Positions 45,001-51,000 of a stretch of 64,000 nt of DNA are shown piece after piece. Position 1 is the stretch's first letter. Every line of letters starts with the position of its first letter. The stretch is from a virus. Its lineage: Duplodnaviria > Heunggongvirae > Uroviricota > Caudoviricetes. Position numbers: made by a program. The stretch spans positions 1-64,000 of IMG/VR virus record IMGVR_UViG_2925908680_000007; one strand, 5' to 3'.

Positions 45001-48000
45001 GGCGGTTAAGAGCGGATTACCTTTCCTTGCTAGCCAACGGAATTGACCCGCAAATTCAAGCTGAGATTGTAGAGGAACAGCAACAAATTGCACTGGACAG
45101 TATTTTTTCAACAGTCGCCGCTAACTGGTTCCAGCTTAAAAGCAAAAGCGTTACCCCTGATTACGCGAAAGACATTTGGCGTTCACTAGAAAAAGATGTA
45201 TTCCCTGCCATCGGTGAGATTCCAGTTCAGCAAATCAAAGCCCGAATGCTTGTTGAAGCCCTAGAGCCAATCAAAGCACGTGGGGCGCTAGAGACGGTAC
45301 GTCGTCTGGTGCAGCGCATTAATGAGATAATGATTTATGCCGTAAACACAGGTCTGATTGATGCCAATCCAGCATCAGGTATTGGGATGGCCTTTGAGAA
45401 ACCTAAAAAGCAAAACATGCTTACTCTCCGGCCAGAAGAATTACCGAAGCTGATGCGTTCTTTGATTATGTCTAATCTGTCCGTTCCGACACGTTGTCTT
45501 ATTGAGTGGCAACTACTGACCCTTGTGCGCCCTTCTGAAGCCTCCGGTACAAGGTGGGCAGAGATCGATCTCGCAGCAAAGGTCTGGACGATTCCACCCG
45601 AACGGATGAAGGCCAAGCGTGAGCACATTGTTCCTCTATCTTCTCAGGCATTAGAAATTCTGGAAGTAATGAAACCAATCAGTGCTCATCGTGAACATGT
45701 TTTTCCCAGTAGAAATGACCCGAAACAGTCAATGAATAGCCAAACTGCTAATGCAGCACTCAAACGCATTGGTTATGGTGGGAAATTAGTTGCTCATGGG
45801 TTACGATCCATCGCAAGTACTGCACTCAATGAAGCCGGATTTAATCCTGATGTAATTGAAGCAGCTCTAGCACATAGTGATAAAAATGAAGTACGAAGAG
45901 CTTATAACCGCTCAACGTACCTTAATAAAAGAATAGAACTTATGGCATGGTGGGGAAGGTTTGTTTATAAAACAAACCTTTTATAACTATACTTTAAAGA
46001 ACTTATTTGTCGAAGATAACTCAAGGATCGAGTTACTCATCATCATTTTCATGTCCGCATCTTCTGAAAACTTATCACTTAATATTGACACAATATATTG
46101 ACCATTTATATTATTTGCTTCAAAAAATATATCTCTAATTTGATTCACATCGACATCTTCAATGCTATCATGAATAACAAAAGTAGGTCTCTTTAATTTA
46201 ATCTTATCCACAAACTTAATATAAGCCAAATCAAATGCAGTTATTTCACCTTTCTTCTTGCCGCCATTACTGTTTGGTGTAACGCATGATATATCAAAAT
46301 TACACTTACCTTTATCAACATCAAAGGAAAGATCAAAAATGTATCTTTCCCCATATATTTCCTTTGTAAGATCACCAAAAAACTCATTGAAAATCTCGAT
46401 GTTTTTTTCCAGACCTTGAACTGCTAACTCTATTTCTAAAAGTAATTTCTCTCGACTATCTTCAAGAGATTTTATGAGGGCATTTGTATCATTAATACGC
46501 GAAAGATTAGACTCTATGCTAGCAAGATTTTCACGTAATTCAGTAAGCTTATTAAATAATTGATTTATAGACTTTAATGTTTCAGGTTCTTTGATTGTTC
46601 TAAATAGGGATGATTCTTGTTCATGAAGATCATTGATTTTTTTATTTACAGTTTCTATTTCTTCTTTTTTCTTTAACAATTCAGATTCTAAAAAACTGAT
46701 TTTATTCTTAATAATATCATTATGGAACAATACCATTTCTTCGTAAGTCCTTTTAAGTTCCCCATTAAAATAAATCCCCGCAGAATTATATATTTCCATT
46801 AAATCATTTTCTACAAGTTGTGTGATATTATTCTTCAAGGACAAGATCGATTCTTCGATATTTCTTACTCGCATATTTAAGGAGGCATAGCTCAAAGAAT
46901 AATCACTGATATTCTTCTGTATTTCTGAAAGCTTTTTTAAGCTTTCATCATGACTATCTTTAAAATCGAAGTTCTTAATATTTCTTTCCGCCTCTGCAAT
47001 TTCTTTCTTCAGAGGCTTAATCATTTTTGCTAAAACAGTCTCTCTATTTGGATTCCTGTATGCGGCAAGATATGTCTTTTGTTTTTTTATCTCTTTGTTA
47101 AAATCACCTTTTTTCTTTATCAGAGGTAGCCCATTGAACCCAAATAAAAACAAGTATAATAGATCATAGACATCAGGAGTCGTATTCCCATGTAAGAAAT
47201 TAAGCGTTTTCTGCATTTTATCATTCGTGTTTCTAATAAATTTATGCGAAACATTCCTCAGTGATGGCTTATCTGTAGTTAACCCAAACACTGCTTGAGC
47301 TATAAATTCAGAATATTGTTTCTTATCTACTTCAACATCATTTAAAAAATATTTTGAATTTTTATCATCAATAGATATTATACGTGAAATAACTGCCTTT
47401 TTATTTTCTACCGTATTGAAATCCAATGAAAATTTCAAAACATTATTATTAATTAACGATACAATTTCAGGTATATCTTTTCCAAACTCTGCATCATGAT
47501 AAATATCATGACCTGATGACATAAATAAATAATCTAAAACACGCGATAATGTGGATTTACCTACACTATTGCCGCTATCTTTGCCTGATGTTCTTTTATT
47601 TACAATTAGATTCAGACCGTCTTTAAACGTCACCTCTCTTACAAGAGAGTCATTTTTTAAAATAATAAGTTTATTGAGCCTCATATACTATTCCACCATT
47701 TCCATCTAACTCAATTGCGCCGATTATGAAAAGCCAATCTAATGAGTAAAGAAAAAGATCAAACGATAACTCGAAGATAGAATTTACTAAATCATACAAT
47801 CGAGATATTTCAATGACCATTGAATCATTACTTTGAAAGATCCTAAGCACTACACTTCCAATATATACAGGATTTGCTTTTGGATCCGTATCAATTGTAA
47901 TCATTTGGATTCTCCAGCACTATACATTCGATAATAGCATAGCTAACAATCATACGAATGCCATAATCAATATCTTCCTGTAAAAACTCTGAATCTAAAT

Positions 48001-51000
48001 TAGAACACGAACTAACTGTTTCTTGAGCAGCTCTAATAACATCATCTATAATATTATCCGAGTTTTTCCTTATGAGTTCAATGTTAAATGGTTTCTCATA
48101 AAGACCATATAATCCCAATGCAGTATTATAATAACCTCTAAACTGTCTTTTCAATTTGACACTACCATTTAAAATTATAGCATCAAGTGTTTTTATGGAT
48201 TCATCAACTAGCAGAGCATCTTCTTTATAAAGTTCAGCTACCCATCTGTTTCTTTTAAGATCATTGAATTCTATTTTAACATCAATATTTGATGCTATTC
48301 TGTTTAAGTTTTGCTCGCTACCAACTGAATTAGAAATAATTTCAATTAACTTACCAATAACACTGGCTCTTAACATTCTTGGCTGGTTGTTTATATGCAC
48401 AGGACCAGTATTATTATTGAAATTAACACCAGAACCCATAATTACCCCCGATTATCAATATTCACAGGACCATTATTATCTTGAAAATATTGAGAACGCG
48501 CTCCTTGATTAATGAAGTTTCTATTAGTTGTAATTTGTACAATCTGGGAATTAAGATCATTTATTGTAATGTTAAGTTGTTTTATCTCATTATCTTTCTT
48601 GGTTACTTGCATAGTCTGATATATTGCTATACATCCAGAGATCACCCCAACAATATATCCAAAGGCACTTACATATTCGTTAGCAAGTAGTGATGCAATC
48701 ATTTGGAGCTCCATTTCAAGCTGAAAGATTTAAAGTCACAACAATCTCATCCTATTAGGGTAGCTAGGATAGCAACTCATGAAGAGTAAATAAATAGGTA
48801 TTAATCATTATCGTTTACATGATCTAATTCAACATAGATCCACTCATGGCCTCTATACTTTCTCATAAACACAGTGTTTAGCTATGTGGGCTTAAGAGGT
48901 CTAAATTGATGTACTTACTTTATCAATTGATATAACCCCAAATTATAATCGTTTCATATCATTGACGCGCAGTGCTTTCCCCGCCTCGCCCGCCCGCTTT
49001 GCGGGGCGGTTTTAATGCAGTTGCACTGACACGCTCAGGCCGCGCCGGGAATGGCGCGGTCTGCAGAAAATGAGGCAGGAAAACGCATGCAAAGCCATGC
49101 ACCTTATCGATGCATGGCTTTTTTCAGTAAAAACGGGCGGATTTTCGGGGAATTTTACACAGACTGATGTGATGCCAGTTGCGCACTTTTACGCGAAAAA
49201 ATCATGTTCTGCGCAGGGGTGAATTTTTCACGGCTGTCATCCACCGAAGCCGCGTCAGGCCTGAATCCGATGGTCGTTAAAATGTCGCTATCCTGTGCGG
49301 AATAATTAATTTTTTCCCCCTTCGCAAGCCAGGACAGAAGGGCTTCACGCAGGGCATCTGTGGCACGCTGTATGGCACAGTTTCGGGCAATGGCCGTCAG
49401 CTCACTGTAGCCCATCAGCTCCGGTGCCAGTGCGGCCGCCAGTACTGTGCCGTGCTGCTGCATAAAATCATTCAGCCGGTCGCGGATGCTGATGTGCTGA
49501 ACGGCTTCATGCGAACGAATATAACGACCGGCGGCCTGATTCACCTGCCATTTTCTGACTTCGATAATATTGCGTAATTCGTCCAGGCGACTGACATTTC
49601 TGCCTTCTCCTGACAGAAGCCGCAGATATTCCTGTTCGGCCGCTGCCAGCTCATTTTTGCGTTGCAGCCATGCTGCTTTGTTATTCTGACAGGTGTCAAA
49701 GGCCTGCTGTAAGGCTGTGCTTTCCATCGTTATCTCTTTCTCATCATGCTGAAGAATAAAAATACGGTGTGCGGCGACGGCCGGTGTTAACCGGCAGCCC
49801 TCATTCCAGACGCAGCGAATATGATTGTGTTTTTAACCGTACTGGCGGCAGTTCCTGTTTTTCATGCAGGCGTTCTGCCAGTTCGTCCGGTGTGACCGGG
49901 CGGACAATGAAGCGGTTGATGGTCTGAAGCGTTTTAAACACCAGACCACAGCCCGGATCCGTGCACACATAAAAACGCTCGGTGACTTCCTGAGACAGAC
50001 GCCGCGATGTTCTTGACAGTGCAAGGCCTTTACATCTCCGACAACAATATCCGGTAACAAGCATTCTTTTCGGGCGTTTCATGCTACCGGAGGCTGACGT
50101 CAGTGAATCGCGGTATCTCTGTTTGCCTGAAATGTATTCCATTCCTGAATCTTTACAGTCAGAGAAAAAGCTTTCACTCGCTTCAAATGTCGCAGAGCAA
50201 TAAATATTCCGGCACTGTGCAATCATTATCTTGGTGCCATCGTCCATGAAATGTGCGCGACGGGTGTGAGCAACATGTCCACACGACGGGCAGTAAATCA
50301 TGACAGCAGTCCTCTGGCCTTAAGCTCTGCTCCCTGCTGGTCTATTTTGTCCTGCCACACCTTGCGCTGTGCCGGTGTGCCTGCCACTTCATAATCCATG
50401 TGCGGGAGTGTTGCCGCTGACAGTCCGGTCAGCCGGAGAACCGGCTCGCCGGTGAGGCTGATTTGCATCTGTTTAATTTTCTGTTCCAGCGATGATTTCA
50501 CCTGCTGCATGACAGCCTTTTCCGGTGCGACGTAGCCCTGATGGCCGGTGGTGTTGGCGAGCGGATTTTCCTGTACCAGAATGCTCAGATGCATTGCCCG
50601 GACAAGCGCCTCACAGGTTTCATTCAGGGCGTGTTCCAGCTCATGCTCTGCATACAGACTCAGCAGGTGATGATGTGCCTTCCGGTAGGCGGTGGTCGTG
50701 CTGTCACACGCCCCTTTCAGGCGTTCGCGTTCAAAATTCAGCACCACAGCCAGATTGTCATATTCCTGTACCAGCTCCCGGCGTGCCACGCGCTCAATGT
50801 GGCGCTGTTTCAGCTCGTCGCTCAGGACACCACCGGCTGCACGAAAGGCCGTGCGCCAGTCGTCAGCGTCGTTTCCGTCGGCCTGCGCCAGCGCATTTTT
50901 TTCCTGCTCTGCCCGTTCAATGGCCGTGACGGTCTCATCCATCAGGCGGGCGTTCTCAAGATGGGCGGCTCTGGCCTTTTCCAGTTGTGCCAGTGCGGGT

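What the first reader, a model, noticed from the sequence alone, without database searches (positions are those of the whole stretch)
45987..48714. Unrecognised four-gene cassette in the P4-like satellite int-cos hotspot: SMC/ABC-like ATPase plus three small proteins
The cassette occupies the slot between int and cos/psu of a complete P4-like satellite, a position known to hold variable anti-phage systems. It is visibly AT-rich relative to the flanking P4 core. The four genes are tightly coupled (48439/48442 abut; 47891-47904 and 47671-47684 overlap). The 565-aa product has an ABC/SMC-type P-loop (GNSVGKST) near the N-terminus, a Walker-B-like FVIHD near the C-terminus and a long coiled-coil between. 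Its partners (90 aa single-pass membrane, 182 aa, 77 aa) match nothing I can name, and the gene content does not fit the named defense systems I can recall (PARIS, Lamassu, Septu, Gabija, Kiwa, retrons, gop-beta-cII). Candidate undescribed ATPase-driven defense or abortive-infection system.
Basis: partly seen in the sequence, partly recalled or inferred. Interest (0 to 1): 0.85.

Follow-up and report, generated by a model that had tools for sequence, protein, structure and literature searches.

The report
Lamassu defence with detached membrane effector
This cassette in a P4 satellite belongs to the known Lamassu (ABC-3C) anti-phage family, but the usual killing enzyme is replaced by a separate tiny membrane protein that shares a short co-evolving sequence tag with the system's adaptor protein, a design that resembles amyloid-type death signalling and that I did not find described for this family.

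Summary
Four tightly coupled minus-strand genes (45987-48714, GC about 0.30) lie between int and cos/psu of a P4-like satellite. The claim that the cassette is unrecognised and does not fit Lamassu is wrong. The 565-aa ATPase matches LmuB and PDC-M68B models over its full length and carries DUF2326. The 77-aa protein is ABC-3C middle component 6. The 182-aa protein is a LmuA-type C-terminal domain (CTD10-like) with no effector domain. Rousset 2022 already catalogued the cassette as P4 hotspot system #12, apparently untested.

The new result concerns the other two proteins. The last ~20 residues of the small single-pass membrane protein resemble residues ~4-20 of the 182-aa protein. Both segments are predicted disordered. 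The four-gene design recurs in Gammaproteobacteria, a betaproteobacterium, Clostridium, Lacticaseibacillus and Collinsella. The motif sequences differ completely between lineages but match within each pair (own versus swapped partners z=6.4).

My best reading is a type II short Lamassu whose effector acts in trans. After the SMC-like sensor fires, the adaptor oligomerises and recruits or activates the membrane protein through the shared motif, and this aborts infection. Nothing has been tested experimentally. I rate it a new variant of a known kind.

The parts
45987..47684 (-). LmuB-like SMC/Rad50-type ABC ATPase (565 aa; DUF2326/YydD family); the presumed DNA sensor
   Evidence: PADLOC PDC-M68B 1.3e-45 and LmuB PDLC03859 3e-16, both full length. 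Pfam DUF2326 1.3e-17 at the C-terminus. Coiled-coil-type hits across residues ~190-440. Conserved at 31-52% identity in distant loci.
47550..47573 (-). Walker A P-loop GNSVGKST (residues 38-45)
   Evidence: G38, N39, G42, K43, S44 and T45 are invariant in 18 orthologues.
46167..46181 (-). Deviant Walker B FVIHD (residues 502-506), followed by S rather than the catalytic E
   Evidence: Read from the translation; the strict Walker B pattern found no match, and FVIHD departs from that pattern. D506, S507, I508 and D510 are invariant. LmuB proteins are reported to have a naturally deviant Walker B.
47671..47904 (-). LmuC-like middle component (77 aa; ABC-3C MC6)
   Evidence: Pfam PF20293 MC6 at 2.7e-13, 50.1 bits against a cut-off of 27.2. 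RefSeq product name. MC6 is present in every related locus.
47891..48439 (-). LmuA-like adaptor (182 aa): a ~20-residue disordered N-terminal motif followed by a six-helix CTD10-like domain, with no effector domain
48380..48430 (-). N-terminal 'head' motif of the 182-aa protein (GVNFNNNTGPVHINNQP, residues 4-20)
   Evidence: It matches the tail of the small protein with an ungapped BLOSUM62 score of 43, z=5.9 against shuffles. It is the best match to that tail anywhere in the other three proteins. F7 and N10 are invariant in the family.
48442..48714 (-). Small single-pass membrane protein (90 aa from ATG 48714; probably 86 aa from ATG 48702); the presumed trans-acting effector
   Evidence: Kyte-Doolittle 19-residue maximum of 1.73 on YVSAFGYIVGVISGCIAIY, and 1.7-2.8 in orthologues. 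AF2 gives one long helix at 13-71 and a tail at 72-90 with pLDDT below 50. The gene is always present immediately upstream of the 182-aa gene. The family is tiny: 26 clusters among 1.84 billion representatives.
48619..48675 (-). Hydrophobic (transmembrane) helix of the small protein, followed by a K-rich flank
   Evidence: A cytoplasmic C-terminus is inferred from the positive-inside rule (KK after the helix); this is inference only.
48445..48507 (-). C-terminal 'tail' motif of the small protein (QGARSQYFQDNNGPVNIDNRG)
   Evidence: It is the most conserved part of the protein, nearly invariant across 14 homologues while the linker varies. It is paired with the head motif.
48972..48990 (-). P4 cos site, the outer boundary of the hotspot
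   Evidence: Exact match to GGCGAGGCGGGGAAAGCA(C).
44787..45986 (+). P4-type integrase, the other boundary of the hotspot; it converges on the ATPase gene with adjacent stop codons

Best explanation
The cassette is a type II 'short' Lamassu (ABC-3C) anti-phage system of the MC6/DUF2326 subtype, carried as cargo in the P4 int-cos hotspot. Its effector is detached from the adaptor.

Shown here:
- The 565-aa protein is LmuB-like and the 77-aa protein is an MC6 middle component.
- The 182-aa protein is a LmuA C-terminal docking domain. In place of an effector domain it has only a ~20-residue disordered N-terminal motif.
- That motif resembles the disordered C-terminal tail of the co-encoded single-pass membrane protein.
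- The two motifs co-evolve. The same design recurs in three phyla, with unrelated but pair-matched motifs.

Inferred from solved Lamassu complexes (LmuA is held as a monomer on a LmuB dimer plus LmuC; DNA-end sensing releases it; it is activated by oligomerising through its CTD):
- Phage DNA ends trigger release and oligomerisation of the 182-aa protein.
- Oligomerisation clusters the N-terminal motifs.
- The clustered motifs capture the matching cytoplasmic tails of the membrane protein by homotypic, possibly cross-beta, association.
- The transmembrane helices are driven to assemble and breach or depolarise the inner membrane. The cell dies before phage release.
For: Family membership:
- LmuB and PDC-M68B HMMs match over the full length, and DUF2326 is present.
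- MC6 scores above Pfam's cut-off.
- Gene order is A-C-B with 14-nt overlaps.
- The Walker B is deviant, as in LmuB.

Four-gene unit:
- The small ORF is present and abuts the LmuA-like gene in every locus read.

Paired motif:
- Tail against head is significant versus composition-preserving shuffles in all 39 loci tested (z 2.5-8.4; window 5.9).
- Across 42 unique pairs, the own partner scores 36.0 against 31.9 +/- 0.65 for swapped partners (z=6.4; 0 of 20,000 permutations reached it).
- Divergent loci rank their own partner 1st-3rd of 42 in row or column.
- Specific positions change in both partners: F to I and N to A in L017; I/E/S/I in L044; loss of Pro in L045.
- Other phyla carry unrelated but matched motifs: C. 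botulinum z=8.7 and L. paracasei z=11.9, and Collinsella 13 of 22 identical.
- In five lineages the tail's best match across ~800 residues of partner proteins is always residues ~4-31 of the LmuA-like protein.
- Both motifs are disordered in AF2 monomers.

Precedent and context:
- Bab/Agp in E. coli is an Abi system in which a ~20-aa motif shared between an effector C-terminus and a sensor N-terminus transmits the signal to a protein with an N-terminal hydrophobic helix.
- The loci sit in defence or mobile-element contexts: P4 hotspot, type I RM neighbours, ArdA, integrases, a P2-like prophage and plasmids.
Against: - No experiment exists for this cassette.
- A related P4 ABC-3C system (the SMEK type, whose ATPase is only 22% identical) gave no protection against 28 phages.
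- PADLOC's LmuA and LmuC models do not hit.
- Profile searches do not reach solved LmuB chains by sequence.
- Sequence similarity between the two motifs does not by itself distinguish homotypic stacking from both motifs binding one common site.
- The proteobacterial motif contains a conserved Pro, which is uncommon inside beta-strands.
- The small protein is a single helix, not a Bell/Babybell bundle.
- Co-variation within the main clade alone is weak (p about 0.02) because the tail is nearly invariant there.
- One genome (Siccibacter, L008) has a disrupted small ORF.
Confidence: 0.6

Rival explanations
1. Membrane tether rather than effector. The small protein uses the shared motif to anchor the Lamassu-like complex permanently at the inner membrane, for example to meet incoming linear phage DNA ends. 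Protection would then come from the ATPase complex itself, through DNA-end binding or blocking, or from a recruited host factor, and not from membrane damage.
For: The small protein is a plain single-pass helix with a long linker. Lamassu complexes sense DNA ends. The paired motif shows coupling but not what the coupling does.
Against: This leaves the system with no identifiable killing or restricting activity, whereas every characterised Lamassu has an effector on LmuA. Permanent tethering would not obviously need two look-alike, co-varying disordered motifs. The position of the head motif exactly replaces the effector domain of three-gene relatives.
Confidence: 0.15
2. Motif mimicry or competition. 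The tail and head motifs resemble each other because both bind the same pocket, on the ATPase, on MC6 or on the CTD itself. One displaces the other as a regulatory switch, for example the small protein acting as an inhibitor or antitoxin-like brake, or as a decoy.
For: Similar sequences that co-vary are also expected for two ligands of one co-evolving site. Both segments are disordered, like typical short linear motifs.
Against: The motifs differ completely between lineages, while the ATPase, MC6 and CTD keep recognisable homology. A conserved pocket would be expected to constrain the motif more. The motifs are N/Q/G-rich with alternating hydrophobic residues, like described signalling amyloid motifs. 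An effector is still missing under this model.
Confidence: 0.15
3. Not a defence system, or a decaying one. Either it is an SMC-like module serving satellite or plasmid maintenance or satellite-helper interference, or it is a Lamassu remnant that lost its effector and is inert.
For: There is no enzymatic effector domain. The related SMEK-type P4 system showed no protection. The system is rare: 28 of 5,426 E. coli complete genomes and 11 loci among the representative genomes of 100,044 species.
Against: All four ORFs are intact. Gene lengths are conserved (182, 77 and 565 aa) at 40-50% identity across orders, and the architecture persists across phyla. That pattern indicates purifying selection, not decay. 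The cassette occupies a slot that overwhelmingly carries defence cargo and sits beside RM systems elsewhere.
Confidence: 0.07

Closest known systems
Type II short Lamassu / ABC-3C (e.g. Vibrio cholerae DdmABC = LmuACB; Salmonella LmuACB, PDB 9hqx)
   Same: An SMC/Rad50-like ATPase of ~565-600 aa with a deviant Walker B and no zinc hook, a small globular middle component, and a third protein whose C-terminal helical domain resembles LmuA's CTD. Gene order is A-C-B with translational coupling. The system is carried on mobile elements.
   Different: The LmuA-equivalent has no Cap4, Sir2, protease, lipase or SMEK domain. It has only a ~20-residue disordered motif. A fourth gene, absent from the LmuACB systems I read about, encodes a small membrane protein carrying the matching motif.
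[quoted passage not shown] 2025 preprint)
   Same: An effector-less LmuA alongside intact LmuB and LmuC, reported in more than 100 sequences from more than 40 species. LmuA_CTD10 and LmuC_MC6 profiles are in their models.
   Different: I could not show that this cassette is in that clade, because the accession numbers were absent from the truncated table. The passages I read from that paper mention no upstream membrane gene and no shared motif.
Bab/Agp amyloid-signalling Abi system of E. coli, bacterial BASS/Bell-NLR pairs, and fungal HET-S/NWD2
   Same: Adjacent genes. A ~20-residue motif at the C-terminus of a small protein with an N-terminal hydrophobic helix and at the N-terminus of the partner on the sensing side. 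The motifs are disordered, N/Q/G-rich and pair-specific.
   Different: The sensor side here is an SMC-type ABC-3C complex acting through an adaptor, not an NLR/STAND or TPR-GreAB-PIN protein. The small protein lacks a Bell/Babybell helical bundle. Amyloid formation is untested. Membership of the motif in BASS1-11 was not tested.
P4 hotspot system #12 'DUF2582 | SMC_N' (Rousset et al. 2022, Table S1B)
   Same: It is this cassette: the protein 1-3 sequences are the same as here apart from two residues in protein 1. It has 108 occurrences and was noted as having TM segments, a wHTH protein and an SMC-like ATPase.
   Different: It is a catalogue entry only. It has no family assignment to Lamassu/ABC-3C, no motif is noted, and it was not found among the cloned systems. 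The representative 'protein 4' belongs to the SMEK-type variant, so two variants are lumped together.
P4 'Syst.5 LmuBC + SMEK' (2026 preprint), and the three-gene MC6 systems of Priestia and C. botulinum Ba4 plasmids
   Same: The same ATPase and middle-component families, the same slot in P4, and the same C-terminal signature on the LmuA-like protein (..[FIV][IV].C.[IV][LF].NP).
   Different: Those carry a fused SMEK-like N-terminal domain of ~200 aa and no small membrane gene. The Syst.5 ATPase is only 22% identical. Syst.5 gave no protection in the panel tested.

Membership tests
Lamassu type II / ABC-3C | LmuB: an SMC/Rad50-like ABC ATPase with an N-terminal Walker A, a C-terminal (deviant) Walker B and a long intervening coiled coil | tested here: met
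   PADLOC LmuB 3e-16 over residues 1-533 of 565. PDC-M68B 1.3e-45. DUF2326 1.3e-17. Motif positions; FVIHD read from the translation. There is no sequence-level hit to solved LmuB chains.
Lamassu type II / ABC-3C | LmuC: a small middle component encoded between LmuA and LmuB | tested here: met
   Pfam MC6 2.7e-13, above the gathering score. The gene overlaps both neighbours by 14 nt.
Lamassu type II / ABC-3C | LmuA C-terminal domain (the CTD family) that docks on the LmuB coiled coil | tested here: met
Lamassu type II / ABC-3C | LmuA N-terminal effector domain (nuclease, Sir2, protease, lipase, SMEK and others) fused to the CTD | tested here: not met
   Only ~24 residues precede the CTD. They are disordered and match no domain.
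Lamassu type II / ABC-3C | Confers phage resistance by abortive infection that depends on the ATPase and the effector | not testable with these tools
   No published test of this cassette was found.
Lamassu type II / ABC-3C | Called as Lamassu by DefenseFinder or PADLOC system rules | not tested
   The pipelines are not available here. PADLOC HMMs hit only the ATPase. DefenseFinder's newer models include the LmuA_CTD10 and LmuC_MC6 profiles.
Amyloid signalling pairs (BASS/Bell-NLR, Bab/Agp, HET-S/NWD2) | A short motif shared between the C-terminus of the effector and the N-terminus of the partner encoded by the adjacent gene | tested here: met
Amyloid signalling pairs (BASS/Bell-NLR, Bab/Agp, HET-S/NWD2) | The effector carries a membrane-targeting HeLo/Hell/Bell-type helical domain with an N-terminal pore-lining helix | tested here: inconclusive
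   An N-terminal hydrophobic helix is present, but the AF2 model is a single long helix, not a bundle.
Amyloid signalling pairs (BASS/Bell-NLR, Bab/Agp, HET-S/NWD2) | The partner is an oligomerising NLR/STAND or TPR-type sensor | tested here: not met
   The partner is a LmuA-CTD adaptor of an SMC-type system.
Amyloid signalling pairs (BASS/Bell-NLR, Bab/Agp, HET-S/NWD2) | The motif forms cross-beta fibrils and templates its partner | not testable with these tools
   This needs peptides, ThT, EM or ssNMR, or prion assays. No multimer modelling or ArchCandy/ASMscan was available.
PADLOC candidate system PDC-M68 | Both the A and B components are present | tested here: not met
   Only PDC-M68B hits. 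None of the other three proteins hits any PADLOC model at E<=1.
P4 satellite hotspot cargo | Located between int and cos/psu of a P4-like element | tested here: met
   Listed in Rousset 2022 Tables S1A and S1B.

The most novel reading that the evidence does not exclude
The shared tail and head motifs are true signalling amyloid motifs. On this reading, an SMC-family DNA sensor (Lamassu) relays its alarm by prion-like cross-beta templating to a minimal pore-forming membrane peptide. That would be the first amyloid-type relay I know of outside NLR/STAND/TPR sensors. It would be present in at least three bacterial phyla, and it would explain the 'effector-less' Lamassu clade.
Probability: 0.3. 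Interest if true: 0.85.

Novelty: new variant of a known kind. Interest (0 to 1): 0.7.

Why it matters
Lamassu is a widespread SMC-based immune family. Its known logic is that the sensor holds an enzyme and releases it to oligomerise. A clade without any effector domain has been reported but not explained. If the small membrane protein is the effector and is engaged through a ~20-residue co-evolving tag, three things follow.

- The effector-less clade is explained.
- Lamassu effectors can be supplied in trans and exchanged by swapping a short tag. This adds a modularity principle and a practical handle for engineering.
- Short paired signalling motifs, so far tied to NLR-like sensors (HET-S/NWD2, BASS/Bell, Bab/Agp), also serve SMC-type sensors.

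The work also shows an annotation problem. The fourth gene and the motif-bearing N-terminus are missed or truncated by current pipelines, as in the Collinsella start codon. The hypothesis is directly testable in E. coli with motif-swap and beta-breaker mutants.

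Tried and rejected
- **Sequence searches against solved structures.** I searched all of the proteins except the small membrane protein against solved structures, and also an 18-member ATPase profile. 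Only coiled-coil noise and a weak Rad50 N-terminal match came back. LmuB kinship therefore rests on the PADLOC HMMs.
- **Krishnan et al. 2020, the ABC-3C source paper.** It is not held in the library. What I say about ABC-3C comes from later papers that cite it.
- **Is this the Domainator 'Lamassu-var'?** No. That locus (CP038295) is an MC2-type system in a non-P4 satellite.
- **Is this the P4 'Lamassu variant' tested in the 2026 preprint?** No. Syst.5 is SMEK-type with a 22%-identical ATPase, and my k-mers are absent from their sequence files.
- **Does the small protein or its tail occur with other kinds of sensors?** The word-indexed search found only close relatives. The exhaustive HMM search found 26 clusters. 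Nearly all are 80-140 aa proteins of the same family, and the two long hits (508 and 1680 aa) matched only in multiple short stretches and I did not read their sequences.
- **Co-variation within the main proteobacterial clade alone.** It is only marginal (p about 0.02-0.035) because the tail is almost invariant there. The signal comes from divergent subclades and other phyla.
- **Promoter and terminator scan.** It is uninformative in this AT-rich DNA: 25 promoter-like sites against 18 +/- 4 expected.
- **tblastn against the phage collection.** No match.
- **Foldseek against AFDB50.** Not available.
- **Crude NJ tree of 14 ATPases.** Three-gene SMEK systems are interleaved with four-gene systems, but there are no support values. 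The direction and number of switches between fused and detached effectors remain unresolved.
- **Comparison with Bab/BASS11.** Not possible, because no sequence is held.
- **Rousset's note of a TM segment in protein 2.** It probably reflects the hydrophobic, highly conserved last helix of the CTD (IVSYAIIECIVL), which sits in a helical bundle in the model.

Full report
**1. The observation**

The four minus-strand ORFs are present exactly as described:
- 565 aa at 45987-47684
- 77 aa at 47671-47904
- 182 aa at 47891-48439
- 90 aa at 48442-48714

There are two 14-nt overlaps, and only a stop codon plus 2 nt separate the first two genes. GC is 0.28-0.35 across the cassette against 0.43-0.63 in the flanks.

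The surroundings are a P4-like satellite. int lies at 44787-45986 and an exact cos site at 48972-48990. psu, delta, sid and the alpha primase follow. The small gene most likely starts at the second ATG (48702), giving 86 aa. A GGAG lies 9 nt upstream, RefSeq uses this start and the homologues begin there.

The identical 3-kb segment occurs in 28 of 5,426 complete E. coli genomes, always on the chromosome and always next to the integrase gene.

**2. What the proteins are**

*The 565-aa protein.*
- It matches PADLOC PDC-M68B (1.3e-45) and a LmuB model (3e-16), both end to end. Its C-terminal head is Pfam DUF2326.
- Walker A is GNSVGKST at residues 38-45 and a signature-like SNGGKKKG is at 472. 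The Walker B is deviant: FVIHD-S, with no catalytic Glu directly after the Asp. There is no CxxC hook.
- These motif residues are invariant among 18 orthologues. LmuB proteins are reported to have a naturally deviant Walker B.

*The 77-aa protein.* It is Pfam MC6, 'ABC-three component system middle component 6', well above the curated threshold. RefSeq already uses that name.

*The 182-aa protein.*
- It has only a weak CTD10 hit. However, 18 of 36 family members hit CTD10, best 9e-7.
- Its AlphaFold model has mean pLDDT 76.7. The first 19 residues are disordered and a six-helix domain follows.
- Foldseek's top hit is the B. subtilis YydD-YydB model (probability 0.95, E-value 0.25).
- Profile comparison aligns residues 25-179 to the C-terminal two-thirds of a C. 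botulinum plasmid homologue (E 3e-8). It also aligns to residues 204-324 of the 328-aa 'ABC-three component system protein' of a three-gene MC6 system in Priestia (E 9e-5). All of these share the terminal signature ..[FIV][IV].C.[IV][LF].NP.

ABC-3C is the earlier name for type II Lamassu. Three of the four genes are therefore LmuB, LmuC and a LmuA reduced to its docking domain.

**3. Prior knowledge of this cassette**

- Rousset et al. 2022 list the same four RefSeq proteins as 'hypothetical x4' among P4 hotspot loci. Their summary table calls it system #12, 'DUF2582 | SMC_N', with 108 occurrences. The notes record TM segments in proteins 1 and 2, a winged-helix protein 3 and an SMC-like protein 4.
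- The N-termini of its proteins do not appear in their table of cloned systems. It seems not to have been tested.
- A 2026 preprint tested a different P4 ABC-3C cassette (LmuB + LmuC + SMEK), whose ATPase is only 22% identical. No protection was seen against 28 phages.
- The Domainator 'Lamassu-var' is an MC2-type system in a non-P4 satellite.
[quoted passage not shown] Their DefenseFinder models include the LmuA_CTD10 and LmuC_MC6 profiles and a 'Lamassu_Hypothetical' subtype. I could not verify that this cassette belongs to that clade.

**4. The four genes are one conserved unit**

Homologues of the 182-aa protein are almost all exactly 182 aa, down to 40% identity. In Vibrio parahaemolyticus, a Crenothrix metagenome contig and Undibacterium the neighbourhood is the same:
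- a small ORF of 84-94 aa;
- then genes of 182, 77 (MC6) and 565 aa (DUF2326), with identical overlaps;
- neighbours that include type I RM systems, integrases, ArdA or a Mob relaxase.

The same holds in 11 loci from species-representative genomes, 25 metagenome loci and 5 further loci. One of these is inside a P2-like prophage. The small-protein family is tiny and specific to this context, with 26 clusters among 1.84 billion representative proteins.

**5. The paired motif, the main new result**

The small protein has three parts:
- an N-terminal hydrophobic helix (Kyte-Doolittle 1.7-2.8 over 19 residues in all orthologues);
- a variable helical linker;
- an almost invariant C-terminal tail, QG.[KR]SQYFQ[DE]N.GPVNIDNRG.

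AlphaFold gives one long helix (13-71) and a low-confidence tail.

That tail resembles the disordered N-terminus of the 182-aa protein, in the same N-to-C order:
- tail: SQYFQDNNGPVNIDN
- head: GVNFNNNTGPVHINN

The supporting tests are these:
- The ungapped score is 43, z=5.9 against composition-preserving shuffles. All 39 loci tested are significant (z 2.5-8.4).
- The two motifs change together. In L017, F changes to I and N to A in both partners. In L044 both read I-E-.-S-.-G-.-I-N. In L045 the Pro is lost from both. L042 has an unrelated pair, GVVKGNVNI / GHVEGNVNF.
- Across 42 unique pairs, the own partner scores 36.0 against 31.9 +/- 0.65 for swapped partners (z=6.4). None of 20,000 permutations reached the observed value. 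Divergent loci rank their own partner 1st-3rd of 42 in row or column.
- Independent drift of two descendants of one ancestral motif would not favour the own partner. This excess therefore indicates co-evolution. The effective number of independent lineages is, however, much smaller than 42.

**6. The design crosses phyla**

tblastn of the ATPase against plasmids found MC6/DUF2326 systems in Firmicutes and Actinomycetota. Three of them have the same four-gene layout, with completely different but pair-matched motifs:

| Source | Small protein and tail | LmuA-like protein and head | Match |
|---|---|---|---|
| C. botulinum pRSJ19_2 | 78-aa TM protein, IRIENSGDNKGTMSGIITGGVNKN | 220 aa, ITLDNSGDNTGTIAGAIEGNVITN | z=8.7 |
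| L. paracasei 7.9-kb plasmid | 59 aa, SNNKLISKGNNNLQQVGGKNSNG | 199 aa, SNNKLSAKGDSNVQQVGTTNING | z=11.9 |
| Collinsella | SQTATGKVATNVVGSNNSANIH | SQSAIGKVATNITGDSNSYDSH | 13 of 22 identical |

In Collinsella the head motif is visible only if the LmuA-like ORF starts at ATG 1644. The RefSeq start lies 153 nt further downstream.

In all five lineages tested, the tail's best match across the ~800 residues of the other three proteins is residues ~4-31 of the LmuA-like protein. The scores are 37-77 there and at most 26 elsewhere.

Other plasmids (Priestia, C. botulinum Ba4) carry three-gene versions. In these the same CTD is fused to an N-terminal domain of ~200 aa that by eye resembles the SMEK-labelled protein of Syst.5, and there is no small gene. 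The head motif therefore occupies exactly the place of the effector domain.

**7. The most likely mechanism**

Established for Lamassu: a LmuB dimer with LmuC holds a single LmuA through its CTD. Binding of DNA ends releases LmuA, which oligomerises through the CTD. This brings the N-terminal effector domains together and activates them.

Inferred here:
- The 182-aa protein is held and released in the same way.
- Its oligomerisation clusters the N-terminal motifs.
- The clustered motifs associate homotypically with the cytoplasmic tails of the small membrane protein. The K-rich flank after the helix suggests an N-out, C-in topology.
- This drives the transmembrane helices together and compromises the membrane, which is abortive infection.

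The closest functional precedent is the E. coli Bab/Agp system and the BASS/Bell-NLR and HET-S/NWD2 pairs. In these, a ~20-residue amyloid motif shared between an effector C-terminus and a sensor N-terminus relays activation to a protein with an N-terminal hydrophobic helix. I found no paper in the library that links Lamassu with amyloid signalling, and the Bab/Agp paper does not mention ABC, SMC or Lamassu partners.

Whether the motif forms cross-beta structure is unknown.
- In favour: the N/Q/G-rich strand-turn-strand look, the disorder in the monomer, and in-register similarity.
- Against, or neutral: the conserved Pro in the proteobacterial motif, and the absence of a Bell-type bundle.

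**8. Rival explanations**

- The small protein may be a membrane tether rather than an effector.
- The two motifs may resemble each other because both bind a common pocket, acting as a regulatory switch.
- The system may not be defensive, or may be decaying. The conservation pattern argues strongly against this.

Each rival has a specific refuting experiment, listed in the rival-explanations section of this report.

**9. Verdict**

A defence function in the P4 hotspot is plausible. 'Unrecognised / not Lamassu' is wrong.
- Family: Lamassu type II / ABC-3C, MC6-DUF2326 subtype. One defining feature, a fused effector domain on LmuA, was tested and is not met. I therefore file it as a new variant of a known kind and not as an ordinary member.
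- The paired, co-evolving motif between a detached membrane protein and the LmuA docking domain recurs in three phyla. I did not find it described, and it is directly testable.
- All functional statements remain inference.

Noticed in passing
window 43244-44443 and 39582-43316: A second tyrosine recombinase gene lies directly upstream of the P4 integrase, so the two integrases are in tandem. It is preceded by a phage-like module: LexA-family and HTH regulators, an SPFH-domain protein at 41437-42264 with a small membrane ORF at 41252-41440 just before it, and a frameshifted DUF5406 gene. This looks like two mobile elements integrated side by side.
   Followed up: partly
window 56017-56136 and 56197-56316: Two 120-nt direct repeats, 81% identical and 180 nt apart start to start, lie just downstream of the alpha primase gene. 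From memory, this layout matches the P4 cis replication region (crr). I did not check it.
   Followed up: no
window 698-1060; 28074-28327: A tmRNA gene (tag ANDENYALAA) lies near the start of the window. A tRNA-Arg(tct)/tRNA-Met pair lies at about 28 kb. Whether they mark a prophage integrated at ssrA was not examined.
   Followed up: no
L053 (Collinsella aerofaciens NZ_OY725717) 1644-2249: The RefSeq start codon of the LmuA-like gene (locus position 1797) appears to be too far downstream. An ORF starting at ATG 1644 overlaps the end of the small gene and contains the head motif, which matches the small protein's tail at 13 of 22 positions. Annotation therefore hides the motif.
   Followed up: yes
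L008 (Siccibacter colletis) 5765-5998: The reading frame of the small membrane gene is disrupted inside the hydrophobic helix, while the tail and the three downstream genes are intact. This could be a sequencing error in a draft genome, or it could be loss of the membrane protein.
   Followed up: no
Rousset 2022 Table S1B, system #12: The catalogue entry combines proteins 1-3 of this cassette with a 'protein 4' (MIRINKLYSEP...) that belongs to the SMEK-type ABC-3C variant. The count of 108 occurrences therefore probably lumps two different systems.
   Followed up: partly
L045 (Logan SRR6869397 contig) 3501-6376: A divergent copy of the four-gene system lies inside a P2-like prophage, between Ogr/Delta-type and gpD-type genes. 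The system therefore uses helper-phage hotspots as well as satellite hotspots.
   Followed up: no
L054 (L. paracasei plasmid) motif pair: The Lacticaseibacillus motif contains N-[LV]-Q-Q-V-G. This is reminiscent of the G-phi-Q-phi-G core of the RHIM/PP/BASS3 amyloid motifs. The resemblance was noted by eye only.
   Followed up: no
L019 (metagenome contig OBWI01002501) small ORF tail: An otherwise near-identical copy of the E. coli cassette has G changed to D at the otherwise invariant glycine of the tail motif (..QDNNDPVNIDNRG). It may be a natural loss-of-function variant or a sequencing error.
   Followed up: no
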